Below are positions 3,191 to 64,000 of a stretch of DNA of 64,000 nt, piece by piece; position 1 is the first letter of the stretch; each line of letters opens with the position of its first letter. The translations under genes and the position numbers were made by a program. This stretch comes from a virus: the IMG/VR virus record IMGVR_UViG_3300009788_000098, positions 21,244 through 85,243 of that record. One strand, given 5' to 3'. The notes beneath the pieces are model-generated. The model did no database searches and had not been told where the DNA came from. It was given only the letters and a program-made list of their open reading frames with translations.

Positions 3191-3227
3191 GTGTATAGAA
3201 ATATCCAACTAGTGAAAGGAGAAAGTT

Positions 3228-5651: not shown

Positions 5652-5680
5652 TTGCATATTTTGTCAAGATATGGTATTAT
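5652..5680 (+). promoter_or_regulatory. promoter, probably giving leaderless mRNA
   Basis: TTGCAT-N17-TATTAT (TG extension); ATG 6 nt downstream, no RBS. Confidence 0.7.
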
Positions 5681-5686
5681 AGTGTA

Positions 5687-6319
5687 ATGATTGAATTAGA
5701 TAGTGGTTTCCAATTGCATTTGGGAGATTGTTTACAAATTATGAAGGGTATGCCTGGTGGTTCTGTGGATGCGGTGGTTACCGACCCGCCGTATGGAATA
5801 GGACGAGTATGGAAAGGCGGTGCTTCATGTGGTTGGGCATCCGCACAGAAACAGACATCCAAAAGGAACGAATGGGATGATAAACCACCCTCAAAAGAAG
5901 TATTTGATACTATTCTGTCCACTGGCAACACGGTGATTATATGGGGCGGGAATTACTTTGAATTGCCTACATCTCGCGGGTGGCTTGTATGGGTAAAGCC
6001 AGAGAGGGGCTTCACATTATCCGAGGCTGAGTTAGCATGGACTAATATGGATATGCCAATGAGAGTATTTGAGCATCGGCGCTCTGATAGAGGGCGTGTC
6101 CATCCTACACAGAAACCGCTTGGTTTAATGAAGTGGTGTATAACAAAATACACAAAAGAGAGCGACACCGTCCTCGATCCCTTTATGGGCAGTGGAACAA
6201 CGGGAGTAGCCTGTCACTTGACGGGACGTAACTTTATCGGCATTGAAATTGATCCTGATTACTTTGCCATAGCAGAGAAACGCATTCGAGAAGTGCAGAT
6301 GCAACCGTTATTATTTTGA
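5687..6319 (+). CDS. N4-cytosine/N6-adenine DNA methyltransferase (beta class)
   Basis: VTDPPY, HPTQKP, LDPFMGSGTTG. Confidence 0.93.
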   Translation: MIELDSGFQLHLGDCLQIMKGMPGGSVDAVVTDPPYGIGRVWKGGASCGWASAQKQTSKRNEWDDKPPSKEVFDTILSTGNTVIIWGGNYFELPTSRGWLVWVKPERGFTLSEAELAWTNMDMPMRVFEHRRSDRGRVHPTQKPLGLMKWCITKYTKESDTVLDPFMGSGTTGVACHLTGRNFIGIEIDPDYFAIAEKRIREVQMQPLLF

Positions 6320-6534
6320 AAGGAGAAGTTATGAACGTTATGAACGGAGGATACCCAATGCCAGATGAATTTGACCCCGATAACCTAGATACTGATAGAC
6401 AGTTGACAGAGGTACTGGAAGAACAGAACAAAGAATTGAAAGCCGAGGTTGAGAGGCTGAAGAAATTATTGAAAGAAGCAATTTATCGCACCGATGCGCC
6501 TGCTGGTGAAGATTGTCTAGGGTGGCAAGGCTAA
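6316..6534 (+). CDS. coiled-coil hypothetical protein
   Basis: AAGGAG RBS (likely start 6331), LKAEVERLKKLLKEA heptads. Confidence 0.55.
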   Translation: MKGEVMNVMNGGYPMPDEFDPDNLDTDRQLTEVLEEQNKELKAEVERLKKLLKEAIYRTDAPAGEDCLGWQG

Positions 6535-6663
6535 AGAGTGGCGGAAATGAATCCTATATTTGCCTACATAATTACAGTTGCCGTGTGTAGTATAATATTC
6601 ACCGTGCTTCTCACCATCTTCATTTATTGCGGCCTTGAAGAAGACTGGGGAGATTGGGATTGA

Positions 6664-6711
6664 ATGGTTGAACTAGAGAACGGATTTCAGTTGTACAGGA
6701 GTGTAAGATGA
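6664..6711 (+). pseudogene. minimal 5' remnant of DNA methyltransferase
   Basis: MVELENGFQLYRSVR*, matching the MIELxNGFQL N-terminus of the paralogues. Confidence 0.65.
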
Positions 6712-7073: not shown

Positions 7074-7093
7074 CTTCTGATACCCGGAAGGAA
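7066..7093 (+). repeat. 28-bp direct repeat, copy 1
   Basis: aaaaatagcttctgatacccggaaggaa, identical at 8833-8860. Confidence 0.9.
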
Positions 7094-7106
7094 GTGAGTG
7101 GCTTGC

Positions 7107-7135
7107 TTGACACAACTGTCAAGATGTGGTATTAT
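7107..7135 (+). promoter_or_regulatory. promoter with palindrome over -35
   Basis: TTGACA-N17-TATTAT; cttgaca-caac-tgtcaag inverted repeat. Confidence 0.8.
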
Positions 7136-7296
7136 AGTGTAGCATATGATATAAAGCGGTAACCACACCGTCAAGTGGGTGGAAAGCCCACACCTCCCCC
7201 TTACCCTGTTGGGAATTGGATGGCAGTTATAGTAGCTTACTGAGTGCGAACCTCAACCATCCAACTACAAGGACACCGTTGAACGAAGGAGAAACC

Positions 7297-7485
7297 ATGA
7301 TTGACTTGCAATATGTACACAAATGTCCACGATGTAATAATCTTTACTCTGATGAACGATTGTGGGAGCTTATTACAAATATGAAAACACCCGATGCTCT
7401 CATAAAAGAGTATAAGATTGACGCATGTCCTGTATGTGTTGTAACAAAAGGCATTATAAAGGTAGTGAAATCATTTCAGGAATGA
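7297..7485 (+). CDS. small Zn-ribbon protein
   Basis: AAGGAG RBS, CPRC...CPVC. Confidence 0.6.
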   Translation: MIDLQYVHKCPRCNNLYSDERLWELITNMKTPDALIKEYKIDACPVCVVTKGIIKVVKSFQE

Positions 7486-7496
7486 AGGAGAAGATA

Positions 7497-7694
7497 ATGG
7501 GAACAATGACTTTATTTATATGTGATTTGTGTGGCAAAAAGTGCGAGGGCAAACTTTCGGAATACCCACTTAAAGATGACTTCTGCTACATTGACTTTCG
7601 TTCACTTGGCGAAAAACGTAGAGTAGAAAATATTCTTGCGTGTGACAGATGTATGAATGAATTTGATAAGCTGTTAGCTACACTAAGGACATAA
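7497..7694 (+). CDS. small Zn-ribbon protein
   Basis: AAGGAG RBS, CDLC...CDRC. Confidence 0.6.
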   Translation: MGTMTLFICDLCGKKCEGKLSEYPLKDDFCYIDFRSLGEKRRVENILACDRCMNEFDKLLATLRT

Positions 7695-7696
7695 CC

Positions 7697-8062
7697 ATGA
7701 TAACATTCCGAACGGGAGACGTAGTTGAGATCAACAATGTGCCAGGCAAAGTTGTACGCACAAAGAGTAGGCAGCTCATTGTAGAGCCGTTACCGAAGTA
7801 CACCTATGCCAATGGGGTCATGCAGTTTGACGAGGAGGACATAGAGCAAGCAGGGAAGTTCTTGGAAATCACATTCATGCGCTTGCACACCGAAATAACG
7901 AACCTGATATCGCTGGTTGAGCTTGCATTGCGAGCTGATGTGCAATATAAACAGCACTACATATATCTGTTAGCGCAAGCAATTGGGGTTGAGATGGGCG
8001 GTATTGATAGAGGTGAGATACCGCACTATGAGGAGGAAGAAGACAATGGCGAGGACAGTTAG
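7697..8062 (+). CDS. hypothetical protein
   Basis: AAGGA RBS, 121 aa. Confidence 0.6.
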   Translation: MITFRTGDVVEINNVPGKVVRTKSRQLIVEPLPKYTYANGVMQFDEEDIEQAGKFLEITFMRLHTEITNLISLVELALRADVQYKQHYIYLLAQAIGVEMGGIDRGEIPHYEEEEDNGEDS

Positions 8063-8268
8063 TTCTATGAGATGTTTGACGCTCATGTCAACTTCAGACC
8101 GATATTATCCTAAGTTTGCCCAGTTCTCGTTTTACGAAGTGCGTTCTGGGCTACCTAGAGATAACTGGCCTGCTGGGACTATATTTCGGGATGGGCGTGG
8201 GCATTTGCGACATGTTCGGAGAGGTAAGAAAGGCGGGTTGATACTGGTGAAGGGGGGCGGGAGGTCGG

Positions 8269-8715
8269 ATGGACATAAGAGGACACTTGATGATGGTGGT
8301 CATAGCTTGCTTATTAGTGGGACTGGCGGGATGTGCTGACCCAGTGGTATTTGAAGCAGTTCGAGACACAGTCGGGCTGCAAGAAGCAACATTGGGTATG
8401 TGGTCAACTGAGTTGTTTTACGATGGGGCACATTACTTTGGAGTAACCCCGCTCTCTCAACAGACGTATTGGATACGGTCTACAATTGAGGGCGTGATTA
8501 CAGACTGCGGGGTGAACGGGAATATCTGCAACATTGCCGATGTGCCAATGACCGGTGTTGAATGGCATATGTTGCCGGAAACAGTCAAGGCGGGAATGGT
8601 GAATTTTGTTCTGACTGTGATTGACAATGCACAGTACGTGAACGCCTGGTTGATGATTATACCAGTAGGCGAGTTTGATATCTTTGATGTAATAGCACCG
8701 AGAGAGAAGACGTGA
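8269..8715 (+). CDS. predicted lipoprotein
   Basis: hydrophobic signal ending in lipobox LAG-C. Confidence 0.6.
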   Translation: MDIRGHLMMVVIACLLVGLAGCADPVVFEAVRDTVGLQEATLGMWSTELFYDGAHYFGVTPLSQQTYWIRSTIEGVITDCGVNGNICNIADVPMTGVEWHMLPETVKAGMVNFVLTVIDNAQYVNAWLMIIPVGEFDIFDVIAPREKT

Positions 8716-8832
8716 TGGTTATTAATAAGTGAATGATGAGCAAAACAATTACGTGTAAAAAATGCAGATGGATTTTTGATGGTCGATGGTGTCCAAAGTG
8801 TGGTTGGGATAGAGCGTCAAAATATGAGGAAG

Positions 8833-13102: not shown

Positions 13103-13131
13103 TTGACATTCAAACCAAAACATGCTATACT
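13103..13131 (+). promoter_or_regulatory. promoter
   Basis: TTGACA-N17-TATACT with TG extension. Confidence 0.8.
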
Positions 13132-13136
13132 CCTAT

Positions 13137-13177
13137 AATCACCCCCCCCACTAGCCCTGCCCGTTGGCGGGGTTTTT
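13137..13177 (+). ncRNA. candidate ~40-nt small RNA with C-rich anti-SD-like 5' end
   Basis: promoter immediately followed by atcacccccccca and terminator gccctgcc-cgtt-ggcggggt-tttt. Confidence 0.5.
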
Positions 13178-21176: not shown

Positions 21177-21901
21177 GCGAATTTGAGAAAGAAGTGCAGG
21201 ACAATATCGCGCGACTGGGTGCAGATAATGTTGCTAAGAAGATGGGATATGAGTGGATAGAACGTGTTGCTCCCAATGGCTACATGCACAACTTCACCTG
21301 GTTGGGGTTGCCGATTATTCAATTACCACAAGACATTATCGCATTGCAGGAAATCATCTGGCGCACATACCCCGATGTGATAGTTGAGCTAGGGATAGCG
21401 CGTGGGGGCGGATTAGCATTCTACGCATCTATGCTAGAATTGAACGGTGGTGGCAGGGTTATTGGAGTTGACATTGACATCAGGGAACCCAATAGGATAG
21501 CCATTGAAGACCACGCAATGTGGGGGGCAATAGAGATGATAGAGGGATCATCGACAGACATACGTGTCGTGAAAGAGGTGAAAGAACTCATCGACACTTA
21601 CGATAGAGTTATGGTGTGCTTGGACAGCCACCACACACACGAACACGTCTTGCGAGAACTAGAATTGTACTCTCCGTTGGTAACAAGAGGATGCTACCTT
21701 GTGGTATTCGACACCTGGTTAGAGGATTTGGCGACAGGAACGTTCCCAGACCGTCCGTGGGGAAAGGGGAACAATCCCAAGACTGCTGTGTGGGAATTTT
21801 TTGGAACTGGTGCAGGAAAACGGTTTGAGTTTGACAAGCGCATACAGAACAAGTTGGTGATGACCAGTAACCCTGATGGATATTTGAGGTGTGTGAAATG
21901 A
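21173..21901 (+). CDS. CmcI / rhamnosyl O-methyltransferase family protein
   Basis: FTWLGLPIIQLPQD, ELGIARGG, LDSHHTHEHV, GNNPKTAV. Confidence 0.88.
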   Translation: MSEFEKEVQDNIARLGADNVAKKMGYEWIERVAPNGYMHNFTWLGLPIIQLPQDIIALQEIIWRTYPDVIVELGIARGGGLAFYASMLELNGGGRVIGVDIDIREPNRIAIEDHAMWGAIEMIEGSSTDIRVVKEVKELIDTYDRVMVCLDSHHTHEHVLRELELYSPLVTRGCYLVVFDTWLEDLATGTFPDRPWGKGNNPKTAVWEFFGTGAGKRFEFDKRIQNKLVMTSNPDGYLRCVK

Positions 21902-22890
21902 GATTTAGCATCGTAATCCCCAACCGCAACCGCGAAGATACGCTCCACTACACGTTGCAGACCTGCATTGAACAAGCCAACTTTGACGACTATGAAATTG
22001 TAGTCTACGACAATGCAAGTGATCCTCCAGCAGAAGTCAGACCTAGATGCACTCTCTACCGTGGCGAGGAACCACTCTCAATGACACGAAGTTGGGAAGC
22101 TGCTGTAGGATACGCTAAGGGTGACTACATTATCGTTGTTGGCAGTGATGATGGGATGATACCCCATGCTCTGCATGATATTGATGAAGTGCTAACCGCA
22201 TTACACAACCCCCCTCTCTTGCGCTGGAATAGATGTTACTACACGTGGGCTAATGCTACCCAAATAGCACTGCCTCCTCAACTGGGGGTGTTGCAGTTAG
22301 TCAAGGATGGTAGTTCGCGTATGCTCGATGCTAAGAAGCTGATTGATGCTGTAGCGCGCGGCAAGATGGATTATACGTTCCTGCCCATGCTTTACACAGC
22401 GGCCATTAGGAGAGATTTGCTAGACACAATGAGAGAACGAACAGGGAGTGTGTTTCATTCGGTGTGTCCTGACATATTTTCGGGGTTTGCTTTTGCGTCT
22501 CTAGTAGACACAGTTCCGTGTATCAACAAGGCAATGACTATCAGCGGTGGAGGCAATAGGTCAACGGGCTTTCATGTCATGGCTATTCCTTACGGCGAGA
22601 TTAGCAAGGAATTTCTTGCCCTGAACAGACAGGATGGGCTTGTGTTGAATCACCGTATCCCAGAGGGGTATTATGACCGCTTGGATGGGGGTTTGCAAGG
22701 TAGTTATTACACAGTTTATGATTTGGGTCTGATTGATTGGGATATAGCAGATACGCCAGAGAAGTTTACAGATATGCCTGCCTTTGATGGTCGGCGCGCA
22801 AATATGCGTGCTACTGACGTGTACCATGCTTCGATAATATGTGGGCGTGAGTTACAGTTTGAGCCTGATTTGAATTTTGTGGAGTGGTGA
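21898..22890 (+). CDS. family 2 glycosyltransferase
   Basis: FSIVIPNRNR, VYDNAS, GSDDG. Confidence 0.88.
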   Translation: MRFSIVIPNRNREDTLHYTLQTCIEQANFDDYEIVVYDNASDPPAEVRPRCTLYRGEEPLSMTRSWEAAVGYAKGDYIIVVGSDDGMIPHALHDIDEVLTALHNPPLLRWNRCYYTWANATQIALPPQLGVLQLVKDGSSRMLDAKKLIDAVARGKMDYTFLPMLYTAAIRRDLLDTMRERTGSVFHSVCPDIFSGFAFASLVDTVPCINKAMTISGGGNRSTGFHVMAIPYGEISKEFLALNRQDGLVLNHRIPEGYYDRLDGGLQGSYYTVYDLGLIDWDIADTPEKFTDMPAFDGRRANMRATDVYHASIICGRELQFEPDLNFVEW

Positions 22891-28160: not shown

Positions 28161-28180
28161 AGGGGAAAGGAGAACAAACT

Positions 28181-28492
28181 ATGATTGAACCGAAACAAAC
28201 CAGGAGACCGCTCCGAGATCGTGACGAGAAGTGTACAGAGGTAAAAAAGATAGTCCGTGTGTACATGACAGAACAGGGTGGCGTACAGGTATCGTTGCGC
28301 ATGTTCGCTGAGATGCTGAACGAGCCGTTTACAGAGCAAGGGCTGACAGGGTGTTCGCATCAGACTATCCATAACTGGATACATCAGAAGCACCTCCCGT
28401 TACCCCGCTGGATGGAACAGTTGAAATACTTTGCACAGCCCGAAGATTGGCAGTACAAGTTTGCTTGCGATCTTGAGATGGCAGCAATCTAA
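28181..28492 (+). CDS. helix-turn-helix transcriptional regulator
   Basis: SLRMFAEML...SHQTIHNW...P XRE-like pattern; AAGGAG RBS. Confidence 0.65.
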   Translation: MIEPKQTRRPLRDRDEKCTEVKKIVRVYMTEQGGVQVSLRMFAEMLNEPFTEQGLTGCSHQTIHNWIHQKHLPLPRWMEQLKYFAQPEDWQYKFACDLEMAAI

Positions 28493-41936: not shown

Positions 41937-42620
41937 TCAGAATAAGAGTGGTTGCATCTGCGCTTCTGCTATGCGTTTTTGGGCTATGTCAAAGTAGTCG
42001 GGGTCAATTTCGATGCCAATAAACTTACGATTATGCTTAACTGAGGCCACACCTGCTGAGCATGAACCCATTGTGAAATCTAATACCGTATCGCCAATTT
42101 CTGTGCTGTCAAGTATCAGCTTTTCTATCAGCGGAACGGGTTTCTCGTTTGGATGTAGCAAGTCATTAGGCATAACCCGTCGCTGATTTATAATTGTTCT
42201 TGGTCTCTTTCGGGGAAAGACAAATCCATCTTTAATGGCAAACAGTATGCTTTCATGTTGCGGGGCATATTCACTATTTAAGTCGCCCATGCCATGAACA
42301 ATCTTATTCCATATAATTTGTGATTTTACATCAAATCCCGATGAAACAATCTCATTTAGAAATGCTTGTTGCTTATCCCATCTGTAAAATACATAGATAG
42401 CTTTTCTTGTTATTCTATAAGCATCTTTTCCCCACCCCAAAAACGGTTCTTTATCATTCCTTATCTTGGGTTTCCACTGCGTTTTGTCAGAGCGCCTGGC
42501 GCTCTGATAGTCTATTCCGTAAGGAGGGTCTACGATTGTCACGTCTGCGGAATTATCAGACATGTTTTGCATAATATCTAAACAGTCACCCAAATGCAGC
42601 TGACAGCTGTTTTCTATCAC
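41937..42620 (-). CDS. N4-cytosine/N6-adenine DNA methyltransferase (beta class)
   Basis: VDPPY, HPNEKP, LDFTMGS; paralogue of 3631. Confidence 0.92.
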   Translation of the reverse strand: MIENSCQLHLGDCLDIMQNMSDNSADVTIVDPPYGIDYQSARRSDKTQWKPKIRNDKEPFLGWGKDAYRITRKAIYVFYRWDKQQAFLNEIVSSGFDVKSQIIWNKIVHGMGDLNSEYAPQHESILFAIKDGFVFPRKRPRTIINQRRVMPNDLLHPNEKPVPLIEKLILDSTEIGDTVLDFTMGSCSAGVASVKHNRKFIGIEIDPDYFDIAQKRIAEAQMQPLLF

Positions 42621-45600
42621 GACAGATTCGTTCTATCCAGCGGATTAGGGGGAGGGACTTCAAACTTGAACCCCAGAGCGTCAATAATCCGTTGTGCCTT
42701 TATTGCTCCAATGCCGTGTAGTTGCTGCAATCCATCTGCGCCCAATGCCAACACGCCTTCTTGTGTCGTTATGCCTATGGTTTCTAATTGTTCTGCAATT
42801 GCAGGTGATATACCTGGCAGGGAACGCAAGTCTGATATCTGTGCTGTTTCAACAGGGGCAACAGGTCGTTGCATAATTTCTTCAATGGTCTTAAGTTTAG
42901 GGACATCTGGTTGAACATCTGGCTGGGCAACTTCTTGAGCAACCTCTTGAGCAAGTTCTTGGGCAGGCTCGGTGACACTTTCTTGAGCAGACGCTTGGAC
43001 AATTGGCTGGACATCCATCTCTATCAACTGTGGCACACCAGGCATATCAACTATTTCTGCTATCTCAATAGCCACATCCTGTATTGTTGCGGGGATAGGA
43101 GTAAAAAAGTGTGGCTGTGCTTCAACATCCGATCTATGAACAAGGAACTCTGCTCCGCCACCCTTATGACCATATCGTGTTCCTGTCGCAGCACCAACCA
43201 CTTTTTGATTACCCTTATTGGGATGTGTATACTTGCACATCAAAAAGTTATCATCTTCGCTACGCATCTTTTCCACCGTAGCAGAATTATCATTTATCAC
43301 ATTCAAATTTGGCCTGGATGTGCGTCTGCCGCCACAACCACTACAACTTTTAGCCACAGGAACCTCCTTTAGTACTCTCTCTGAATATTGTAACATTTTT
43401 ACAGCAATACGTCTACCCTGTTCTGTGTGCTTGCTTGCCTTTTCACGCCGTGTGCCAGTGTGCATCTTGTAACTTATTAGCTGTTCTGGCAATCTGACAT
43501 AACAATAGTTGCGTGCCATCACCCAGTGGTAGAGAACGTCTTCAAAACTCTCCATAGTTTCGTCAAATCCACCAATAGCCATATGCCATGCTTTAGGTAC
43601 AAGACAGGTAACAAGACACCAATGGAATGGCTTTGCGTAATCAGCCCCCTTTTTCTCAGGTTGCCGTTGTGCCCTCTCACAGTCATAGTCAGCAGACCTG
43701 CCTGAGATTGTGGCGATATTAGTACGCGTATTGTAATGAAGAACCTCTTCTGCTTTGAAGTTCTTTTTCAAATCCTCATCAGTTGTCACATGAGAACTTA
43801 CGTAGTCTGTGTAGACAATTGCACCCTCGTCTTGGAAGGCAAACAGACACTTTTCCAGAAACTCAGGGGCGAATTGGTCATCAGCGTCCAAGAATACGAG
43901 GAATGGCGCACGGGCATGTTCTGCCCCTCTGTTACGTGCGTACCCTGGCCCTTTGCTGCCAGTTTTGACAAGGCGCACATAGGGATATGCGACCAGTTCA
44001 GGCTCGTTGGGGCTATCCCATGCCAGAACCACCTCCCACAAGCGGTAAGTCTGTGACTCAACACTGTCGAGAGCGTTATAGACTTCCTTTTCGTGTCCTT
44101 CACCAACAGGTATAACGATACTCACAACAGGTTCATCATACTGACGTACAGGGTGAGATGCGCGTTTTTCAGGAGGTGTAGTACGGCAGGCAAACGGGAA
44201 CTTCTTATCCTTTGCGTGGGGGTGCATACTTAGCCAGCGTGGTTCAGTAAGTTCGTCAGAATGTTGCCCCTTGTTGCCCGAAACCATACCTGTACCCAGA
44301 CTGTAGATGAATAGACCAGCCTTGGTGACTTGTCTGACCCCATAACCGATTGCCATGATGCGCGTCCAGAGGTCTGCATCTTCTGATCCTGCGCCAAGAG
44401 GGGCATAACGTGACTTATATCCCCCTGTGCGCTCCCATGCTTTCTTGCGGACAACACAACATGTGGGGACTTGATTATGACCACGTGCGTTGTCTTTGGA
44501 ACGATAGGTGAATTGTAAGTCGTAGTTACAATCGGAAGGCCATGTAGTCAGTCCTTCTTTGCCATCAGCCTTTATGCCCCAGATACCCGTGTATGCGATA
44601 CCCAATGATGGGTCTTTCTCTAGCTCTGGCAAACATGCTTCTAAGAACTTGGGTGCTATCTTATCGTCAGCATCAATGCAACATATGTATTCGCCTCGTG
44701 CTTCTTCTATACCACGATTGCGGGCTACGGCTACCCCACTGTTCCGCTGTGCAATGTAGCGCACATTCTGGTATTTTTGTGCCAGTGCTGTAGCGACTTC
44801 AGAGGTATTATCTGTACTACCATCGTCAACTATGATAATCTCAAGTGCGGGACGTGCTTGTTCCAGTGCGCTTACAACTGCGCGTTCCAACATGTTCGCG
44901 TAATTGTAGACTGGAACTATCACAGATACCTGCCCCTTGTACGGATGTGGTTTCATTGCAAGGCGGTAGATACCAGCAACCTGTTCTGCAATGACCTCCC
45001 ACTTGTATTCCTTAGACATCTCACGTCCGTTCTTGCCCAGAGTGTCGCGGTGTTCAATACAGTACGCAAGACCACGAGCGAAGTCATCTATGTCATTAGG
45101 GCGTGCAAGGTAGCCATTTCTCCCATGTTCAATTAGCTCTTTATTCCCTCCCCACGCAAAGCCCAGAACTGGTACAGCAGCGGCCATTGCTTCTAGCACT
45201 CCAATGCCAAAGGTCTCTTTTGTGGTAGACAGATAGACCGTTGCTTGTTCAACGAGCTTCTTCATTTCAGCATGGGGGCGCAATCCTATCTCTTTGATAT
45301 TGGGCAAGTTCTTATTATACCCAACTGGCAAGAATGTTGTCAGATAGCGTATACCTTTCACCTTTTCAGCAAGTTGCACCATGGGAGTAGGGTCACACAC
45401 GTCACGGTTGCGGTTCTTGTTCCACAGCACGTAATCACCGTGTTCCTGCACATTCCATTCTTCCACCTCTATTCCGTGCGGGACAATATGGGGATCAATG
45501 CGCATATCGCGGCGTATGGTCTCTGCAACCCACTCTGTAGGGACTGTGACCTCTCTAGCATGGCGCAGGGCTTCTATAACGTTGCGGTTGGCGTTGTATT

Positions 45601-57606: not shown

Positions 57607-57619
57607 GCGTATCTCCTGT

Positions 57620-57634
57620 ACCCACAAGGGGTAA
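57620..57634 (+). repeat. 15-bp direct repeat, left of HNH-MTase cassette
   Basis: acccacaaggggtaa also at 59671-59685; caaggggtaattc at 58457-58469. Confidence 0.8.
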
Positions 57635-57847
57635 TTCGGACAATTTCAGTCTTATTTGTCCATTATAGCATACGCGGGTGATTATTACAAGATTGATTGT
57701 TGTAATTCTTCGTGGTGTATGATATAATACAATTGACCTTGGGCAGATAAAATGAAATATGGAATAATCTTATAAGTTAGCTCCTTGTGCTGTTTGCCTT
57801 TGGTCAGGTATTTCATCAGTATAAGGAGTTTTCTATTGAGGTGTAAT

Positions 57848-58417
57848 ATGTATAAGGCAATAATGACGGAGATGAGAAAAACTGGATTGACATTGAAAGA
57901 AATAGGTCAGATTTTTGGAGAAAGAAAACAAAAAATACACTATATAGTTGGAAACACAGGAAGACTGACGCCGATACAACGTTTCTGGAAAAAAGTAAAT
58001 CGTTTAACATCTGATAATTGTTGGGAATGGACAGGGGCTAAACTTGCTACCAAATATGGAGGAATGGAGATTAATGGTAAACTAATTCGTGTCCATCGTT
58101 ATTCTTGGGAAATAGCCTTTGGCGAAATACCAAAAGGTTTGCATGTTCTTCATAAATGCGACAATCGATCTTGTGTAAATCCCAATCATCTGTGGTTGGG
58201 AACTCACCAAGACAATATGAGAGATCGAGATGAGAAAGGAAGAGGCAAGCCTGGGGGAAAAGAGGGAACTTCTCTTTTATCGCCTAATTTAGTGAGAGCA
58301 ATACGAAGACGGTACGAGAACGGGATGAACTATGCACAAATAGCAAGACTAGTTAAATACAACCCAGGTGCTATTCATCAAATTGTAAATCGCAAGACGT
58401 ACAAACATGTAATATAA
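57848..58417 (+). CDS. HNH homing endonuclease with HTH domains
   Basis: CWEWTG, VHRYSW, VLHKCDNRSCVNPNHLWLGT..DNM.D. Confidence 0.92.
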   Translation: MYKAIMTEMRKTGLTLKEIGQIFGERKQKIHYIVGNTGRLTPIQRFWKKVNRLTSDNCWEWTGAKLATKYGGMEINGKLIRVHRYSWEIAFGEIPKGLHVLHKCDNRSCVNPNHLWLGTHQDNMRDRDEKGRGKPGGKEGTSLLSPNLVRAIRRRYENGMNYAQIARLVKYNPGAIHQIVNRKTYKHVI

Positions 58418-58473
58418 TATGTTTCTGTTCACTTGCCGTACAGATAGGCATTTTGGCAAGGGGTAATTCTACT

Positions 58474-58502
58474 TTGACTTACGATAGAGAGTATGGTAGA
58501 AT
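58474..58502 (+). promoter_or_regulatory. promoter, probably giving leaderless mRNA
   Basis: TTGACT-N17-TAGAAT, ATG 6 nt downstream. Confidence 0.75.
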
Positions 58503-58508
58503 ACAAGT

Positions 58509-59639
58509 ATGAGATACGGTAGCCTGTTTTCAGGGATAGGTGGGTTTGATTTGGGCTTTGAGCGAGCAGGAATGGAATGTATATGGCAAGTTGAAATTGA
58601 TGAGCATTGCAACAAGGTGCTAGGAAAACATTTCCCAAATGTAAGGAGGCGCACAGATGTCAGAGAAGTCGGAAAAGGACTTGAACCAGTTGAGCTTATT
58701 TGCGGGGGCTTCCCCTGTCAAGACCTCTCCGTTGCCGGAAAGCGGAAGGGCTTGGTTGGAGAGCGATCAGGACTTTGGTTCGAGTTCCATAGAATTGTTG
58801 AAGAGCTTACTCCCAAGTGGGTTGTCATTGAGAATGTACCCGGTCTCCTCTCAAGCAACGGAGGGGAAGATTTTGCTATCATCCTTCAAGGGCTGGTCAA
58901 ATGCGGGTATGGCGTGTCGTGGAGGATACTGGACAGCCAGTATTTCGGAGTGGCACAGAGACGCAGACGTGTGTTCATTATCGGAAGTCTTGGAAACGGA
59001 CGTTCCGCAGAAGTATTATTTGAGTGCGAAAGCCTGTCAGGGAATCCTGCGAAGGGCAGAAAAACGAGGGAAGAAGATACCGAAAGAATTACATCGGGTT
59101 TTGGTCACTCAGGCGGGAAAACAGTCAAGCTAAATCCCATTGCTAACACGCTCAACGCACAAAGCGGAAGCAAAACAACAGCTATGATACAAGGAGTAGC
59201 TGTCATTCAACAAAATACTCGTGATGAAGTTAGAGTAGTGGGTGATGGCAAGATAGCAGGTGCATTACCAGCACAGCCAGGAATGAAACAACAAAATTAT
59301 GTAGTATTTGACTGGCAATCCGGCGGTGATGTCCGCCTAAATGTTTCAGACAAACATACAAGTGCATTACAAGCAAGTCAAACACCTGCTGTAGTCATTC
59401 CTGCATTTGATGGTCGTGCAGGCAGACAAACACTCAAATCACAACGGATACCAGAGGTGAGAAGTAGCCTACATGGTGTACGCCGACTAACCCCAACAGA
59501 GTGTGAGCGTCTACAAGCGTTTCCAGATGGGTGGACAGACAAGCAATCAGATACCCAACGCTACAAGCAGCTTGGAAATGCAGTAACGGTCAATGTGACT
59601 GAATGGATTGGCAAACGCATAGTTGCTCAAGTACTTTGA
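58509..59639 (+). CDS. dcm: C5-cytosine DNA methyltransferase
   Basis: LFSGIGG, GGFPCQ, ENV, QRRRR, RLTPTECERLQ, YKQLGNAV. Confidence 0.95.
   Translation: MRYGSLFSGIGGFDLGFERAGMECIWQVEIDEHCNKVLGKHFPNVRRRTDVREVGKGLEPVELICGGFPCQDLSVAGKRKGLVGERSGLWFEFHRIVEELTPKWVVIENVPGLLSSNGGEDFAIILQGLVKCGYGVSWRILDSQYFGVAQRRRRVFIIGSLGNGRSAEVLFECESLSGNPAKGRKTREEDTERITSGFGHSGGKTVKLNPIANTLNAQSGSKTTAMIQGVAVIQQNTRDEVRVVGDGKIAGALPAQPGMKQQNYVVFDWQSGGDVRLNVSDKHTSALQASQTPAVVIPAFDGRAGRQTLKSQRIPEVRSSLHGVRRLTPTECERLQAFPDGWTDKQSDTQRYKQLGNAVTVNVTEWIGKRIVAQVL
58657..59133 (+). CDS. overprinted gene inside the C5-methyltransferase (putative second subunit)
   Basis: AAGGAGG RBS, 158 codons open in +1 frame, SLSEVLE..VP.KYYLS.KAC.GILRRA motif. 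Confidence 0.7.
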   Translation: MSEKSEKDLNQLSLFAGASPVKTSPLPESGRAWLESDQDFGSSSIELLKSLLPSGLSLRMYPVSSQATEGKILLSSFKGWSNAGMACRGGYWTASISEWHRDADVCSLSEVLETDVPQKYYLSAKACQGILRRAEKRGKKIPKELHRVLVTQAGKQSS

Positions 59640-59763
59640 CTTATCTACGTGAGATTTTTGAGCAGATTAGACCCACAAGGGGTAAAAGCCCGTAATCACC
59701 CCCCCCACTAGCGGGTGTTGCCATTGTGTCAACAAGGATGTGCGTTATTGACAGTTATTGCCC

Positions 59764-59792
59764 TTGACATCTAGTTTATAGTATGCTATACT
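59764..59792 (+). promoter_or_regulatory. promoter
   Basis: TTGACA-N17-TATACT with TG extension. Confidence 0.82.
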
Positions 59793-59797
59793 AAATT

Positions 59798-59868
59798 ATT
59801 CTTCTCCTCCTTTCACGAAGAATGAGACGATCAGCCATGAGATTGGCAATGGTCGTCTCCTTGCTGTT
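59798..59868 (+). ncRNA. candidate small RNA with anti-SD loop
   Basis: attcttc-TCCTCCTTTCAC-gaagaat hairpin then gagacgatca...tggtcgtctc hairpin. Confidence 0.55.
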
Positions 59869-59869
59869 A

Positions 59870-60019
59870 AATAATACATGCCCCCAAACTCATCGAGCAG
59901 GGGGCATGGGGCCAAAAATTTGCCCGGGCTTTGCCTGGGGTACCAGCGAAAGATATGCCTACATGGTTAGTAGGTTAGCCGCACCCACCCATACGGGTAG
60001 TATTCGACTGCGCTTCCGC
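59870..60019 (-). ncRNA. candidate ~150-nt structured RNA
   Basis: TTGCAA-N17-TACAAT promoter at 60054-60026, three-way junction, terminal catgccccc/gggggcatg hairpin. Confidence 0.5.
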
Positions 60020-60090
60020 AATATTATTGTATCATAACTTTCAAGCTATTGCAATCTCTCGCGTTGTTTTACCTTCCCTATTTACAACAA

Positions 60091-60360
60091 TCATTGTGTA
60101 TGATTCTTTCCTCTAAACTTTTCTGCGTATTCAGTAGTAATACTTTCCAGTCGCTCCAAACTTATATGTTGCTTTCCTAGCACCCTTTGTAATATTTTAT
60201 ATACTTCCTCGTCGTCATCAAAATCAAAGTTATATCTTAGGTCACTTGTGTTCCCTTCAACTGCACTCCACAGGAATTTCAATAATTCAGCCCGCATCTC
60301 CGCATAGTATATTTCTCTCTTCATTAGGTCAACTTGGTTTTGCTTTCTAGGTTTGTTCAT
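60091..60360 (-). CDS. hypothetical protein
   Basis: AAGGAG RBS. Confidence 0.6.
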   Translation of the reverse strand: MNKPRKQNQVDLMKREIYYAEMRAELLKFLWSAVEGNTSDLRYNFDFDDDEEVYKILQRVLGKQHISLERLESITTEYAEKFRGKNHTQ

Positions 60361-60779
60361 TATTTTCTCCTTTTCTTTAAGGTTTTACAAGCACGCAATT
60401 CCCATGTTCTTTGCCTGTTTATCCAGTAGCTAATCATTTCGCTTTGACTTGCCACCCGGCAATCCCTACCGTGGCCCACATCTCCTATCTCATCAAAGTA
60501 TATCCTGGGTCTGGATACTAGCTGCCCCTTGGGGCAACTGTTACTCCTTCTACACCATGGTAGCCGAGCTAATAGTAGTATATCACGATTGTTGGTTAAA
60601 TGCAAACGCCCTCACGAATGAGAGCGCTTACATTAGTAGCTCAAAAGACAAAGCCGTTGCTAAGTCGAGGTTGACTATAGTATACCACAATTTTCCCCCT
60701 ATTGCAACTCGTACTCTTGCGGTACAATTAGGACACGAATTATCCGAATTGTCCCCGTGAAGGGGAAGGAGTCTACGAT

Positions 60780-61379
60780 ATGCCACCTACCAAGAGAAAA
60801 ATGGGTCAAGGGACTGTACAACCAATGGCTCTGTTCGCTGCTGATGGAACAGCTATTGACTTTGACCATGAACTAATTGCACAAGTACCAACCTCAATTC
60901 TCGTTCCTCACCGTGCTGTCCATTTAGGTGTCACATTCCTGGTGTGCTACAAATCGCCTGAAGGAAGTGAGATAGCCGACAATGCCAGCATTAACTTTAT
61001 TATTAACTCAAGATACTCAATGCACTTGTCTTTTCTAGGTGCTGCTGGCGGTGACGCTGAATTAGCACTTTGGGAAAATACAACCTATACCGACGGCTCG
61101 CTTATCTCGCCACTGAATATGAACCGTGATTCAGGAGCTTATCCCGATGTGGCGCGCAGAGACGTAACTGTAACAGCTTACGGAACTAACCTGCTCAACA
61201 TCTTCCTGCCCGGTGGTACTGGAGGCAACTCGTCAGGTGGAGTGTTGCGACTGGGAACTGAGTTTGTTCTAAGCGCCGATACAAACTACTTGCTGGAAAA
61301 CATCAACCGCGCAGGTCAGGCACAGTCCATGTCACTTCACGCAGAGTGGTACGAAGCAGAACGGGCCGTAATCCCCTAA
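60780..61379 (+). CDS. hypothetical protein, possibly virion-associated
   Basis: AAGGAG RBS, beta-rich, PLNMNRDS motif; isolated on + strand. Confidence 0.6.
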   Translation: MPPTKRKMGQGTVQPMALFAADGTAIDFDHELIAQVPTSILVPHRAVHLGVTFLVCYKSPEGSEIADNASINFIINSRYSMHLSFLGAAGGDAELALWENTTYTDGSLISPLNMNRDSGAYPDVARRDVTVTAYGTNLLNIFLPGGTGGNSSGGVLRLGTEFVLSADTNYLLENINRAGQAQSMSLHAEWYEAERAVIP

Positions 61380-61460
61380 AATCATTCACAATCCCCTGCA
61401 AACAGGGGAAACCCCCTGTAAAGGGCGGGAATTGGACAAAAAAGGTCTTATTTATCCGAA

Positions 61461-61769
61461 TTAGGACACAATCTCAACCTTGTAGCCAAGTTCCTTCTCG
61501 ACCTCTTCCACAGTCATTTGTTTGGACGCGACTTCTGCATCGTATAAAACCGTGCGATATTCAGGTTTCCAGCACCAGCCAGAACCACCCAAAACCTTAA
61601 CTATCCGATATTGGGGAGCTTCTTTACAAAAGCTAAATATCTCTAGCCGATCCCACCCTCCTTTGTAAATCACCATGTCAGTACCCTGAATAGTATCTCG
61701 TACTATTAATCCAACTTGACCTTCATTTGTTACAATCATCATCCCCGATTTCAAATCTTCCATTTTCAT
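61461..61769 (-). CDS. hypothetical phage protein
   Basis: DLKSGM.IV, MTVEEVEKELGYKVEIV C-terminus common in phages. Confidence 0.65.
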   Translation of the reverse strand: MKMEDLKSGMMIVTNEGQVGLIVRDTIQGTDMVIYKGGWDRLEIFSFCKEAPQYRIVKVLGGSGWCWKPEYRTVLYDAEVASKQMTVEEVEKELGYKVEIVS

Positions 61770-61875
61770 AAGCATTTCTCCTATCCAAACTGCACAATAC
61801 AGTACGCAATCAGCCCGCATACTGCAACAATCACTACAATTATTAACAATACCGCTTCACCGCCCATGTCATTGG

Positions 61876-62370
61876 TCACAATAACAACTCCTCAAGCGAC
61901 TTCCGCCTCTTGCGACTTGGCTCATCTGCCGCATACCCAAGAGGAGTGAAGGCAATTGGCTCTACCCCCTGCGGCAATCCCAACACATCCCTCGCTACAG
62001 CAACATCAAAAGCTGCAACCCAACAAGTACCCAATCCAAGAGCAGTAGCAGCAAGAATGAGATGATCCATCGCGATGGCAACATCCACCAACATATAATT
62101 AGCCCCGTCACACTTCCGCACCCAAGCTTCCTCCTGCACACCACATATGCAAATAACAATCGGTGCCTGTACGAACCAGTCTCGGTTGAATATACGTCTC
62201 AATTCCTCACCACGCCCCCGCAACACCAACAACCGAAAAGGCTGCCTGTTAGCAGCAGTCGGAGCTAATATAGCAGCTTGCAACACCCTCTCCAAATCCT
62301 CATCCGACACAGCATCCCGGCGATAAGCACGGACACTGTAACGGTTTGTGATAAGTTCTTCAAATGTCAT
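61876..62370 (-). CDS. nitroreductase family flavoprotein
   Basis: RYSVRAY, APTAANRQP, LAATALGLGTCWV, LGY. Confidence 0.92.
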   Translation of the reverse strand: MTFEELITNRYSVRAYRRDAVSDEDLERVLQAAILAPTAANRQPFRLLVLRGRGEELRRIFNRDWFVQAPIVICICGVQEEAWVRKCDGANYMLVDVAIAMDHLILAATALGLGTCWVAAFDVAVARDVLGLPQGVEPIAFTPLGYAADEPSRKRRKSLEELLL

Positions 62371-62634
62371 TACCGATCCTTTATCAACGCATCAATATCG
62401 TGTTCAAAACTCTTTCTCTTTTTGTAATGCGTGACGATAGACTTTAGCAATAACTGCAATTGTCTCACTTCTTCAATTGACAAAGACACAAGTCGGCATC
62501 CTGCACTACCTCTCATTACTGATATCTCAATTTCTCTATCATGCTTTCCAGACGCAGATATTCTCATATCTCCAATGCTCGTGTTGGCACTGAACTCGCT
62601 TCCCCTTTCCCGCAATATCACAGGTTTAGATACG

Positions 62635-62973
62635 TTATTCATGTCTGGCATCACTGTGCTCACACTCATCTTTCGACCAGCATCTTTCGCAATAATTAGC
62701 AATGTGCATAATATCAACTGTGTAATCATCTGCCTGTTGGTGACATGTAATATGTTTTGCTATTCCAGAGATTATGGCTTCAAGACGACCAATTTCTTCT
62801 GCCAGCTCATTCTCAATGGGGCGCATTTCAAATATTTCTGTCTGTTTATCATCCTCCATGGTTTGAAATACGAACATTATGTAGCAGTTTTTGCACCTCA
62901 TCTTGCGTTCATCAATCCATTTATAGCCCTTCGCACCGCAAAATGGACATCGCATTTCTTGTATCTCACTCAT
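62635..62973 (-). CDS. Zn-ribbon hypothetical protein
   Basis: AAGGAG RBS, CPFCG...CKNC. Confidence 0.55.
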   Translation of the reverse strand: MSEIQEMRCPFCGAKGYKWIDERKMRCKNCYIMFVFQTMEDDKQTEIFEMRPIENELAEEIGRLEAIISGIAKHITCHQQADDYTVDIMHIANYCERCWSKDECEHSDARHE

Positions 62974-63251
62974 TATTCTCCTTCCTTTCAGCAAACATCC
63001 TCTGCCTCCTACATCACGTCGCACCTGCCAATATAGCTTGATCCTCTTCCATTCACAATACTCAATATAACAAATCACAGCAAGCGTAATCGGGATATAC
63101 AAAATCGCTAACACAAAGAGTATCATAACTGTCTTATGTCGTAGTAAATCTTGGAAATACAAATGCCAAGGAAAATACCTAGAGCCAGTCCTAAAAGTAC
63201 ACCAGAGCGATAAATCTCAAAAATTGTTGTTCCGAAATATTCCATACTCAC

Positions 63252-63280
63252 AGTATAACACAGGTTGCACAGAAAGTCAA
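63252..63280 (-). promoter_or_regulatory. leftward promoter, probably leaderless
   Basis: TTGACT-N17-TATACT, ATG at 63245 6 nt downstream. Confidence 0.75.
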
Positions 63281-63339
63281 GAGTGGGACAGTAGGGATCG
63301 GGAAAAGTGGTACGTGTAGTGAGTGACCACCCCACCACC

Positions 63340-63355
63340 TAGAACACATGTTCTA
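63340..63355. promoter_or_regulatory. LexA (SOS/Cheo) box
   Basis: tAGAAC-acat-GTTCTa. Confidence 0.8.
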
Positions 63356-63399
63356 CGGAATCGATACGCGGTCTGCATGGTGTGCGGCTCGCGGGCAGG

Positions 63400-63695
63400 A
63401 CAGGACAGACGGGAGCGGGCAGGGCGTGGGTGTAGACAGGGCGTGAGGGCGTGGGTGTGGTAGTATAGCTGTCTACCGGGGTCGTTATAGATTGTAGGGT
63501 GTGGGCATGGCCGGGTGTGGGCGTGGGCGCCTCTGTATAGTATAGATAAGTAAGTATAAAGGGTTCGTTATAAGGCTCGTGGTATAGGGTCTCTGTGTCA
63601 GGACTCGTGTCAGTGCCGTGTATACTCGCATTGTGTCAGGACTCGTGTTGTGGTATCGTGTCCTGGTATCATGGGCTCGTGTCCTGGTATCATAC
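63400..63695 (+). repeat. G/T-skewed non-coding region with short direct repeats
   Basis: gggcgtggg repeats; tgtgtcaggactcgtgt x2; tcgtgtcctggtatcat x2. Confidence 0.7.
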
Positions 63696-63732
63696 ATATA
63701 TAATGAAGCAAGTTGACATTGTAAGAGGGAAT

Positions 63733-63776
63733 TAGAACACATGTTCTACAGAACGCCTGTCCAGAACATCTGTGCT
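63733..63776. promoter_or_regulatory. LexA box plus two degenerate copies
   Basis: tAGAACacatGTTCTa, AGAACgcctGTCCa, AGAACatctGTGCT. Confidence 0.78.
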
Positions 63777-63868
63777 AGGCTGCGTAAAATTGGCGTAAAG
63801 GCGCTGTGATTGCCTTGTCAAGGGCTATACTTATATCGTATACTATAGATAGTGAAAGGAGCAAGACT

Positions 63869-63997
63869 ATGACACAGAAACAAAAACTACAGCTTAAAAT
63901 GAAACTCCAACGGAAACACATTACGATATTGCGATCCATGGACAAACGGATTAACAGCGCTGATAATCGACTTGTTAGAATGTCAGGTGTACGCTAA
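63869..63997 (+). CDS. small basic protein
   Basis: AAAGGAG RBS, downstream of TTGTCA-N18-TATACT. Confidence 0.55.
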   Translation: MTQKQKLQLKMKLQRKHITILRSMDKRINSADNRLVRMSGVR

Positions 63998-64000
63998 TGA

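What the first reader, a model, noticed from the sequence alone, without database searches (positions are those of the whole stretch)
59764..59868. Small RNA presenting an anti-Shine-Dalgarno sequence in a hairpin loop
Seen: a near-consensus promoter drives a transcript that starts with a 7-bp stem whose 12-nt loop is UCCUCCUUUCAC, complementary to GUGAAAGGAGGA. This matches the phage's own gtgaaaggag RBSs upstream of 3228 and 63869. A second long hairpin follows and there is no credible ORF with an RBS. Inference: a trans-acting translational silencer of SD-led mRNAs (early phage or host).
Basis: partly seen in the sequence, partly recalled or inferred. Interest (0 to 1): 0.75.

Follow-up and report, generated by a model that had tools for sequence, protein, structure and literature searches.

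The report
Phage small RNA mirroring early ribosome sites
An uncultured 85-kb phage carries, behind a strong promoter, a short non-coding hairpin RNA whose open loop is the exact complement of the ribosome-binding tag on its own early genes. It probably switches those genes off at the level of translation, but no transcript or effect has been seen.

Summary
An 11/12 sigma-70 promoter with an extended -10 (59764-59792) is followed at about +1 by a 7-bp hairpin (59798-59823). Its 12-nt loop UCCUCCUUUCAC is at least 98% unpaired. A 14-bp hairpin (59824-59859) with a U-rich tail follows.

The whole genome (85,243 bp, 123-bp terminal repeats) holds 7 exact GUGAAAGGAG ribosome sites, not 2. Five of them belong to first genes behind strong promoters. 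Loop permutations reach the observed 8 of 126 strong pairings in 1 of 1000 trials.

No sequence homologue or Rfam family was found. A syntenic relative (about 50% protein identity) uses a different early tag, AGGAGUCAC. It carries its own promoter-driven 7-bp hairpin complementary to that tag, with up to 13 nt of perfect match.

Best reading (confidence about 0.5): a trans-acting anti-RBS sRNA that shuts down early, and perhaps host, strong-SD messages. This is a new variant of a known kind (C-rich or anti-SD loop sRNAs; phage c4 and sar RNAs; a functional analogue of T4 RegB).

No RNA data exist. Unchecked AI notes of this scan report similar anti-SD hairpins in other phages.

The parts
59764..59792 (+). 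Sigma-70/sigma-A type promoter: TTGACA, 17 nt, TG-n-TATACT (extended -10)
   Evidence: 11 of 12, TG present. (one of 13 sites with >=11/12 in the genome).
59798..59823 (+). Hairpin 1 at the predicted 5' end: 7-bp stem ATTCTTC/GAAGAAT with a 12-nt loop
   Evidence: No second copy of this inverted repeat elsewhere in the genome.
59805..59816 (+). Loop UCCUCCUUUCAC, the complement of GUGAAAGGAGGA (anti-RBS seed)
   Evidence: P(unpaired) is 0.98-1.00 at 12 of 12 positions in transcripts of 78, 163 and 298 nt. Permutation test.
59824..59859 (+). Hairpin 2: 14 pairs, one 2-nt bulge, 6-nt loop. Candidate terminator stem.
   Evidence: -21 kcal/mol on its own.
59860..59876 (+). Imperfect U-rich tail CUUGCUGUUAAAUAAUA. 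This A/T-rich spacer is shared back-to-back with the minus-strand hairpin 59877-59908.
   Evidence: Inference only: the terminator scan did not list it (bulged stem).
59877..59908 (-). 9-bp hairpin CATGCCCCC/GGGGGCATG followed on the minus strand by GUAUUAUUU. Likely end of the convergent minus-strand transcript.
3212..3221 (+). Predicted target: GTGAAAGGAG ribosome site of gene 3228-3602, behind promoter 3162 (11/12, TG)
   Evidence: total -14.2 kcal/mol.
63852..63861 (+). Predicted target: GTGAAAGGAG ribosome site of the 42-aa ORF 63869-63997, behind promoter 63815 (10/12)
   Evidence: total -12.4 kcal/mol.
6316..6325 (+). Weaker predicted target: TTGAAAGGAG (1 mismatch) before gene 6331-6534
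   Evidence: -11.9 kcal/mol.
28163..28172 (+). Weaker predicted target: GGGAAAGGAG (1 mismatch) before gene 28181-28492, behind a 12/12 promoter at 28132
   Evidence: -12.0 kcal/mol.

Best explanation
A stand-alone phage gene for a small non-coding RNA of about 70-80 nt. Host RNA polymerase starts at about 59798 from a near-consensus promoter. The RNA begins with a 7-bp hairpin that holds a 12-nt pyrimidine loop open, and it ends after a 14-bp hairpin with a U-rich tail.

The loop base-pairs with the extended Shine-Dalgarno tag (U)AGUGAAAGGAG. That tag marks seven of the phage's own genes, five of them the first cistron behind strong early-type promoters. The loop would pair more weakly with any strong AAAGGAGG-type site, host ones included. 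The duplex covers the SD, so 30S subunits cannot bind and the message may be exposed to decay. Late structural genes have weak or no SDs and would escape.

Shown here: the promoter, the fold, the open loop, the lack of coding capacity, the non-random match to the phage's tag, and an analogous hairpin in a relative. Inferred: transcription, the 3' end, pairing in vivo, repression, and timing. On timing, the gene lies about 4.2 kb from the right genome end, far from most targets at the left end. If DNA enters left end first, the RNA would be made late. That idea is pure speculation.
For: - Promoter: 11/12 with TG.
- Fold: z -4.47, MFE structure 58% of the ensemble.
- Loop: at least 98% unpaired.
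- Targets: 7 exact GTGAAAGGAG sites in the genome, all 6-7 nt before start codons, plus 5 sites with one mismatch. Five of the 7 lie directly behind promoters of >=10/12.
- Pairing: 8 of 126 translation start regions pair with the loop at <= -15 kcal/mol. Composition-preserving loop permutations give a mean of 0.88, and 1 of 1000 reaches 8. Permutations that keep the CUCC core give a mean of 1.08, P 0.002.
- Accessibility-corrected energies for the 7 targets are -10.8 to -14.2; the median over all 126 genes is -4.5.
- The loop binds these sites about 3 kcal/mol better than a generic 16S-type tail does.
- Late genes pair worst: median -6.7 against -9.9 for the left-end genes.
- No coding alternative holds up.
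- Among 26 non-coding hairpin entries of the genome, this one matches the most start regions, 10 at <= -14.
- Independent parallel: the syntenic relative G001 (28 of 126 proteins matched) uses the early tag AGGAGUCAC (6 genes) and has no GTGAAAGGAG at all. It carries a 7-bp hairpin behind an 11/12 promoter whose 16-nt loop region complements that tag. The best match is 13 nt at -24.7 kcal/mol, and 15 of 105 start regions reach <= -13 against a permutation mean of 3.31 (P 0.003). It is likewise followed at once by a long hairpin.
Against: - No RNA evidence of any kind. No RNA run is listed, and the only holder is the probable source DNA.
- No homologue of the element exists in 86 other fetched loci, the phage database or IMG/VR. 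Conservation and covariation of this hairpin itself therefore cannot be tested.
- The tail after hairpin 2 is a poor U-tract compared with canonical terminators in the same genome (for example at 13155-13177). The transcript may run on.
- Nine of the 12 loop bases resemble the generic ribosomal anti-SD tail (recalled knowledge). Only CAC is specific to the phage tag, a chance of about 1/64.
- The minus-strand copy of the tag could be an inverted relic of an RBS cassette.
- The promoter is of the same class as the target promoters, so delayed action is not explained by sequence.
- In G001, half of the 16 loop positions are predicted to be paired. That hairpin lies in the leader of a tRNA-like gene or tRNA cluster, so it may belong to a different kind of RNA.
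Confidence: 0.5

Rival explanations
1. A real transcript whose loop complementarity has no function. The promoter would drive a longer non-coding or antisense RNA into the convergent region 59870-60360. Hairpin 1 would serve only as a 5'-terminal stabiliser. Its loop would be an inverted relic of one of the phage's promoter-RBS cassettes.
For: - The tail after hairpin 2 is a weak U-tract.
- The whole 59796-59960 stretch is structured (z -4.08).
- The minus strand reads GTGAAAGGAG-GAG-AAGAAT, which resembles the cassette GTGAAAGGAGAAG seen at another gene.
- 5' hairpins protect RNAs in Gram-positive bacteria (recalled knowledge).
Against: - A relic would not be expected to sit exactly in the loop of a perfect 7-bp stem at +1 of a top promoter.
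- A relic would not be expected to keep 12 of 12 bases unpaired.
- A relative has the same arrangement for a different tag.
- No ORF or RBS lies downstream on the + strand for about 950 nt.
Confidence: 0.2
2. A mimic of the 16S rRNA 3' tail that acts globally rather than on the phage's tag. It would either soak up the strong SDs of host messages (host shut-off while weak-SD late genes are read), or it would act as a decoy for a protein or nuclease that recognises the ribosomal anti-SD tail.
For:
- A second promoter-driven mini-transcript in the same genome (13103-13177) carries another 16S-tail-like C-rich stretch. Its 20-mer is repeated 70 nt upstream of this promoter.
- Late genes have weak SDs.
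- The relative G006 has a 10-bp hairpin whose 17-nt loop holds a 10-nt CACCUCCUUA tract.
Against: - The host is unknown, so no host target set could be scored.
- The three extra bases CAC fit the phage tag rather than the recalled 16S tail.
- Titrating all strong SDs needs very high RNA levels.
- The G001 loop follows that phage's private tag, not the 16S tail.
Confidence: 0.15
3. A DNA-level element. The inverted repeat ATTCTTC-N12-GAAGAAT at +1 to +26 would be an operator for a repressor of this promoter, and the RNA would be irrelevant.
For: A perfect inverted repeat lies directly at the start site, a classical operator position.
Against: - No other copy of the repeat with <=2 arm mismatches stands at any other promoter. 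The 9 hits are this site in three registers plus six scattered 2-mismatch sites.
- The half-sites are not enriched: 8 and 7 copies against about 5.2 expected.
- The 19-bp centre-to-centre spacing is unusual.
- This reading does not explain the 10-12-nt match of the spacer to the ribosome tag.
Confidence: 0.05
4. The CU-rich tract is simply the RBS of a minus-strand gene, or the + strand 71-aa ORF 59822-60037 is a real gene.
For: - The minus strand reads GTGAAAGGAGGAG, a perfect SD.
- A 71-aa ORF starts at 59822.
Against: - None of the 13 positions 3-15 nt after GGAGG is ATG, GTG or TTG, and no frame stays open for more than 16 codons.
- The 71-aa ORF has no SD and no Pfam or PHROG hit.
- It has no relative, and is not itself a called gene, among about 5.8 billion protein clusters.
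- Its per-codon score is -0.06. Called small genes score 0.130 +/- 0.057 (minimum 0.004, n=53); all 316 ORFs of 50-100 aa average -0.047.
Confidence: 0.03

Closest known systems
C-rich / UCCC-motif sRNAs of Bacillota (RsaE/RoxS, RNAIII hairpins; Geissmann et al. 2009, PMC2790875, abstract read)
   Same: An unpaired pyrimidine motif in an sRNA binds the SD region of several mRNAs and blocks formation of the initiation complex. Action is Hfq-independent, and the architecture is a hairpin plus a terminator.
   Different: Those are chromosomal, conserved RNAs with a short UCCC seed. This one is phage-encoded with a 10-12-nt seed fitted to a private tag of the phage's own early genes. No Rfam family matches it even at E <= 10.
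Cuckoo / alpha-r14 / CcsR RNAs of Alphaproteobacteria (PMC4615179, passages read)
   Same: Hairpin loops display an anti-SD-like motif while the stems are free to vary. The proposed action is occlusion of the ribosome site.
   Different: Cuckoo RNAs have 2-4 adjacent hairpins that each carry CCUCCUCCC. Here only one of the two hairpins carries a motif, and the motif differs (UCCUCCUUUCAC). The host range and genomic context also differ.
c4 RNA of phages P1/P7 and sar RNA of P22 (review PMC12197685, passages read; sar partly recalled)
   Same: A phage-encoded small RNA whose loop sequences pair around a ribosome binding site of a phage gene and block its translation.
   Different: c4 and sar act on one neighbouring gene (ant) of their own operon or locus. 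Here the predicted targets are 7-12 dispersed genes that lie 3 to about 60 kb away and share a tag. There is no Rfam c4 match.
T4 RegB endoribonuclease (and RegA) early shut-off (PMC1702504, abstract read; PMC3014915, search listing only)
   Same: A phage device that inactivates a class of its own early messages through their GGAG ribosome sites, recognised by way of an extended conserved sequence.
   Different: RegB and RegA are proteins. Here the recognising agent would be an RNA loop. No homology is implied.

Membership tests
Trans-acting base-pairing sRNA (generic class) | Own promoter | tested here: met
   11/12 sigma-70 match with TG, 17-nt spacer. This is a consensus match only, not proof of use.
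Trans-acting base-pairing sRNA (generic class) | Non-coding | tested here: met
   No start codon follows the minus-strand SD. The 71-aa ORF has a null-like codon score and no relatives.
Trans-acting base-pairing sRNA (generic class) | Intrinsic terminator that defines a short transcript | tested here: inconclusive
   A 14-bp hairpin is followed by CUUGCUGUU. It was not called by the terminator scan.
Trans-acting base-pairing sRNA (generic class) | Accessible seed complementary to several mRNAs beyond chance | tested here: met
   Loop at least 98% unpaired. 8 of 126 start regions pair at <= -15 kcal/mol, P 0.001 by permutation. Corrected energies.
Trans-acting base-pairing sRNA (generic class) | Detected transcript and a regulatory effect | not testable with these tools
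   No RNA run holds the DNA. The host is unknown.
Cuckoo / ar14 RNAs (Rfam; PMC4615179) | 2-4 adjacent hairpins, each loop carrying CCUCCUCCC | tested here: not met
   Only hairpin 1 carries a pyrimidine motif, and it reads UCCUCCUUUCAC. The loop of hairpin 2 is UGAGAU.
Cuckoo / ar14 RNAs (Rfam; PMC4615179) | Match to the family covariance model | tested here: not met
   No Rfam match in 59600-60120 at E <= 10 or in the window at gathering score.
   no match to any of 4227 families.
   The nearest exact target is 4 kb away, behind its own promoter. No ant-like gene was recognised next to the element.
RsaE/RoxS | Match to the Rfam model, with two C-rich unpaired regions | tested here: not met
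   No Rfam match. There is a single pyrimidine loop.

The most novel reading that the evidence does not exclude
This phage lineage may mark its early genes with private, lineage-specific extensions of the Shine-Dalgarno sequence: GUGAAAGGAG here, AGGAGUCAC(C) in the relative G001. Each phage would then encode a matching 'anti-tag' hairpin RNA, so that regulator and targets change together. That would be an RNA-programmed early-to-late translational switch, an RNA counterpart of T4 RegB/RegA. It could also spare weak-SD late genes while silencing strong-SD host messages.
Probability: 0.35. Interest if true: 0.8.

Novelty: new variant of a known kind. Interest (0 to 1): 0.62.

Why it matters
Temporal control in phages is known mainly through transcription factors and, in T4, protein nucleases and repressors that act on ribosome sites. 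A phage RNA that recognises a private ribosome-site tag shared by its early genes would be a compact, evolvable way to shut off a whole gene class. It would explain why early genes of some phages keep oddly extended, identical ribosome sites.

Tag and loop appear to differ together between two related phages, so the idea can be tested directly with reporters and compensatory mutations.

My literature searches found phage sRNAs that act on single genes or on host targets. They found bacterial anti-SD-loop sRNAs. They found no description of a phage sRNA aimed at a tag shared by the phage's own early genes. Supplements were closed and could not be checked.

Tried and rejected
**Expression.** No RNA holder is listed. 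The only run that holds the stretch is a DNA run of a subsurface metagenome that may be the source. Its 85,150-base contig is identical over 58400-61500, so it gives no variants and no covariation.

**Homologues of the element.** None was found in any of these searches:
- blastn of 59640-60090 against 50,697 phage records.
- Exact 24-mer in IMG/VR.
- blastn against 86 fetched loci, best E 0.51.
- Rfam at gathering score on the window and at E <= 10 on 59600-60120.
- ARAGORN.

**Relatives through neighbouring proteins.**
- Methylase: only 29-67% relatives in unrelated contexts.
- 89-aa, 199-aa, 498-aa and 502-aa proteins: nothing in viral, genome or metagenome contigs or in phage records.

**Readings considered and rejected.**
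- Minus-strand RBS.
- 71-aa ORF as a gene.
- Shared DNA operator.
- Upstream stretch 59640-59765 as a structured RNA: z 0.14.
- Homology with the 1.0-1.2-kb gap of the closer relatives L008-L011: that gap is a CA-rich low-complexity stretch.

**Candidates judged ambiguous.**
- A third candidate analogue in G005 (hairpin 21529-21561, loop with UUGACUCC) is ambiguous in strand and context and was not counted.
- The G006 hairpin (a loop with a 16S-tail-like 10-mer) lies beside a tRNA-like sequence and 4.3 kb from a Ro60/TROVE gene. It may be part of a Y-RNA-like gene and was not counted as support.
- The exact 20-mer of the G001 hairpin occurs only in G001 itself.

**Not used.** Structure prediction, fold search, complex prediction, build_rna_model and the protein-atlas search. 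No protein question arose, and there were too few homologous RNAs for a model.

Full report
**Context.** The window is bases 21244-85243 of an 85,243-bp IMG/VR virus record with 123-bp direct terminal repeats and 45% G+C. The DNA occurs in one subsurface-metagenome DNA run. The tape-measure protein finds only distant (<60%) relatives in 384 phage records. By first word of organism name these are mostly Gram-positive (Streptococcus 83, Staphylococcus 48, Paenibacillus 36, Brevibacterium 34, Arthrobacter 30). Together with TTGACA/TG-n-TATAAT promoters and AAAGGAG ribosome sites, this suggests a Gram-positive, perhaps Bacillota, host. That is inference, not a result. My own simple gene call gives 126 genes:
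- Mostly small rightward genes at 0.2-8.6 kb.
- Rightward replication and sugar genes up to 50 kb.
- Leftward structural genes at 50-79 kb.
- A mixed cluster at 79-85 kb, which holds the finding.

**The observation.** The element lies in a 451-bp gene-free gap between a C5 cytosine methylase (58509-59639, +; Pfam E 3e-73) and an 89-aa leftward ORF (60091-60360).
- The promoter is TTGACA-17-TATACT with TG (59764-59792). It is the best site in 58000-62000 and one of 13 sites with at least 11/12 in the genome.
- Six bases after the -10 begins a perfect 7-bp stem (59798-59804 / 59817-59823) around the loop UCCUCCUUUCAC.
- A 14-pair hairpin (59824-59859) follows directly, then CUUGCUGUUAAAUAAU.
- The 78-nt stretch folds at -25.7 kcal/mol (z -4.47, 0 of 200 shuffles as good), and one structure holds 58% of the ensemble.
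- All 12 loop bases are 98-100% unpaired, also in longer transcripts.

**Is it coding, or an RBS for the other strand?** No.
- On the minus strand, GTGAAAGGAGGAG is not followed by ATG, GTG or TTG at any of the 13 spacings from 3 to 15 nt, and no frame stays open beyond 16 codons.
- The + strand 71-aa ORF (59822-60037) has no SD and no Pfam or PHROG hit.
- It has no relative, and is not even a called gene, in the large protein collection.
- Its codon score is -0.06. That lies inside the null distribution (-0.047 +/- 0.094, 316 ORFs) and below every one of the 53 called small genes (minimum 0.004).
- The inverted repeat does not recur at other promoters.

**The targets.** The whole genome has seven, at genome positions 1542, 2129, 4953, 6901, 24455, 85095 (+) and 6745 (-). 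Each lies 6-7 nt before a start codon. Five further sites have one mismatch. The only other copy of the 10-mer is the minus strand of the loop itself.
- Five of the seven belong to the first gene behind a promoter of at least 10/12: promoters at genome 1505, 6848, 6796 (-), 24405 and 85058.
- The target proteins are small and of unknown function. 2 of 10 have a PHROG hit, both to families of unknown function.
- Loop-site duplexes are -15.2 to -16.0 kcal/mol, about 3 kcal/mol better than with a generic 16S-type tail.
- After subtracting opening energies they are -10.8 to -14.2. The median over all 126 genes is -4.5, and 18 of 126 genes reach <= -10.
- 8 of 126 start regions reach <= -15. 1000 permutations of the loop give a mean of 0.88, and only 1 reaches 8. 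Permutations that keep CUCC give 1.08, P 0.002.
- Late structural genes pair worst (median -6.7).

Caveat: CCUCCUUUC looks like the usual ribosomal anti-SD tail (recalled knowledge). Only the last three loop bases are specific to the phage tag, a chance of about 1/64.

**Relatives.** The element has no sequence homologue and no Rfam match. The 733-aa protein next to the locus has 1512 relatives, the best at 57%. An alignment of it brought 80 viral loci.
- The 79.5-kb record G001 is syntenic: 28 of 126 proteins match at 26-58%.
- In G001, and in the closer fragments L008-L012, the homologues of the 532-aa and 733-aa genes are neighbours.
- Here they are separated by about 15 kb (genome 78850-85243 plus 1-8780). 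That stretch carries the terminal repeat, this RNA and six of its seven exact targets. Regulator and targets therefore belong largely to one lineage-specific module.
- GTGAAAGGAG occurs in 0 of 5 related records. Its complement occurs in 1 of 10, a single site.

**An independent parallel.**
- G001's early genes (15.6-21.2 kb) use a different extended tag, AAGGAGUCAC. The 9-mer AGGAGTCAC occurs before 6 genes.
- At G001 42515 an 11/12 promoter leads a structured leader (z -3.95) ahead of a tRNA-like sequence and six tRNAs.
- That leader contains a perfect 7-bp stem around UCGGUGACUCCUAACC, followed 5 nt later by a 17-bp hairpin.
- This loop region is complementary to G001's tag. The best match is a 13-nt perfect match at -24.7 kcal/mol. 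15 of 105 start regions reach <= -13 against a permutation mean of 3.31 (P 0.003). The top-ten mean is -18.1 against -12.49, with 0 of 1000 permutations as good.
- In a blind scan of ten genomes for frequent ribosome-site 9-mers that occur away from any called gene start, 37 rows were listed. Only 2 lie in a perfect-stem hairpin loop: this element and the G001 one.
- In a scan of all non-coding hairpins against all start regions, each of the two is the top entry of its genome. They match 10 and 11 start regions, among 26 and 60 entries.

Limits of the parallel:
- Half of the G001 loop positions are predicted to be paired.
- An earlier AI note links a look-alike of that leader in another genome to Y-RNA-like tRNA mimics. 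G001 itself has no TROVE gene, although G006 has one.
- Two genomes are a small sample.

**Mechanism and rivals.** The best-supported reading is a trans-acting anti-RBS sRNA, with confidence about 0.5. The main rival is a real but functionless or differently functioning transcript: a 5' stabiliser of a longer RNA, with a relic of an inverted RBS cassette in its loop (0.2). Next is a global 16S-tail mimic acting on host messages or on a protein (0.15). A DNA operator (0.05) and the coding or minus-strand RBS readings (0.03) are weak.

**Comparison with what is known.**
- In mechanism it resembles the UCCC/C-rich sRNAs of Bacillota (PMC2790875, abstract) and the cuckoo RNAs, whose loops show an anti-SD motif (PMC4615179, passages).
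- Among phages it resembles the c4 RNA of P1/P7, which pairs around one ribosome site through its loops (PMC12197685, passages).
- In logic it resembles T4 RegB, which inactivates early messages at GGAG within an extended conserved site (PMC1702504, abstract).
- It is a member of none of these families: the models do not match and the defining architectures are not met (see the membership table).

**Earlier notes of this scan.** These are AI notes, unchecked by experiment. They report anti-SD or anti-RBS hairpin RNAs in several other phage groups, some beside tRNA clusters. The scan has therefore seen this kind of thing before on other DNA. I used those notes as leads only.

**Verdict.** The feature is real. 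It is a new variant of a known kind, with interest 0.62.

Noticed in passing
window 59693-59712 and 13136-13155: An exact 20-mer, TAATCACCCCCCCCACTAGC, occurs twice. At 13103-13177 it follows an 11/12 promoter and precedes a canonical terminator, forming a mini-transcript of about 40 nt. At 59693 it lies 70 nt upstream of the anti-RBS promoter with no evident promoter of its own. Similar promoter plus C-run units stand at genome 8623 (+) and 32484 (-).
   Followed up: partly
window 57620-57634 and 59671-59685: A 15-bp direct repeat, ACCCACAAGGGGTAA, brackets the HNH endonuclease and C5 methylase genes, with the copies 2,051 bp apart. It may be the footprint of a mobile cassette or of a recombination event.
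   Followed up: no
window 59870-60054, minus strand: A convergent structured region (fold z -4.30 over 59780-60095) lies behind a 9/12 TG promoter at 60054-60026. It ends at the hairpin 59908-59877 plus GUAUUAUUU, back-to-back with the end of the anti-RBS RNA. It may be a second small RNA.
   Followed up: partly
L090:2515-2700 (G001 42515-42700): An 11/12 promoter leads a leader with a hairpin complementary to G001's own early ribosome tag AGGAGUCAC. A 17-bp hairpin, a tRNA-like sequence and six tRNAs follow.
   Followed up: yes
L099:3851-3887 (G006), minus strand; L129: A 10-bp GC-rich hairpin has a 17-nt loop that reads UUUUUUUCACCUCCUUA. It lies about 45 nt after a tRNA-like sequence and 4.3 kb from a Ro60/TROVE gene (E 4.5e-21). 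It may be a module of a Y-RNA-like gene or another anti-SD display.
   Followed up: partly
genome 78850-85243 plus 1-8780 (window 57607-64000 and beyond the window start): About 15 kb separates the 733-aa and 532-aa genes, which are adjacent in all the relatives examined (G001, L008-L012). The stretch holds the terminal repeat, HNH, the methylase, this RNA and most tagged early genes.
   Followed up: partly
window 28922-57606, minus strand (late genes): Structural genes have weak or no SDs by my simple scan: 11 of 29 had no SD motif recognised. They show the weakest pairing with the loop (median -6.7 kcal/mol).
   Followed up: partly
L010:1330-2170: A gap of about 1.0-1.2 kb lies between the 532-aa and 733-aa homologues in the closer relatives L008-L011. 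In L010 it holds a CA/AC-rich low-complexity stretch and a G-run with no convincing gene.
   Followed up: no
G013 22324-22374 (L115): The frequent ribosome-site 9-mer CAGGAGGGT and its complement face each other about 33 nt apart in a non-coding stretch with no ORF downstream. This is a hairpin that would pair an SD-like tract with its complement in cis.
   Followed up: no
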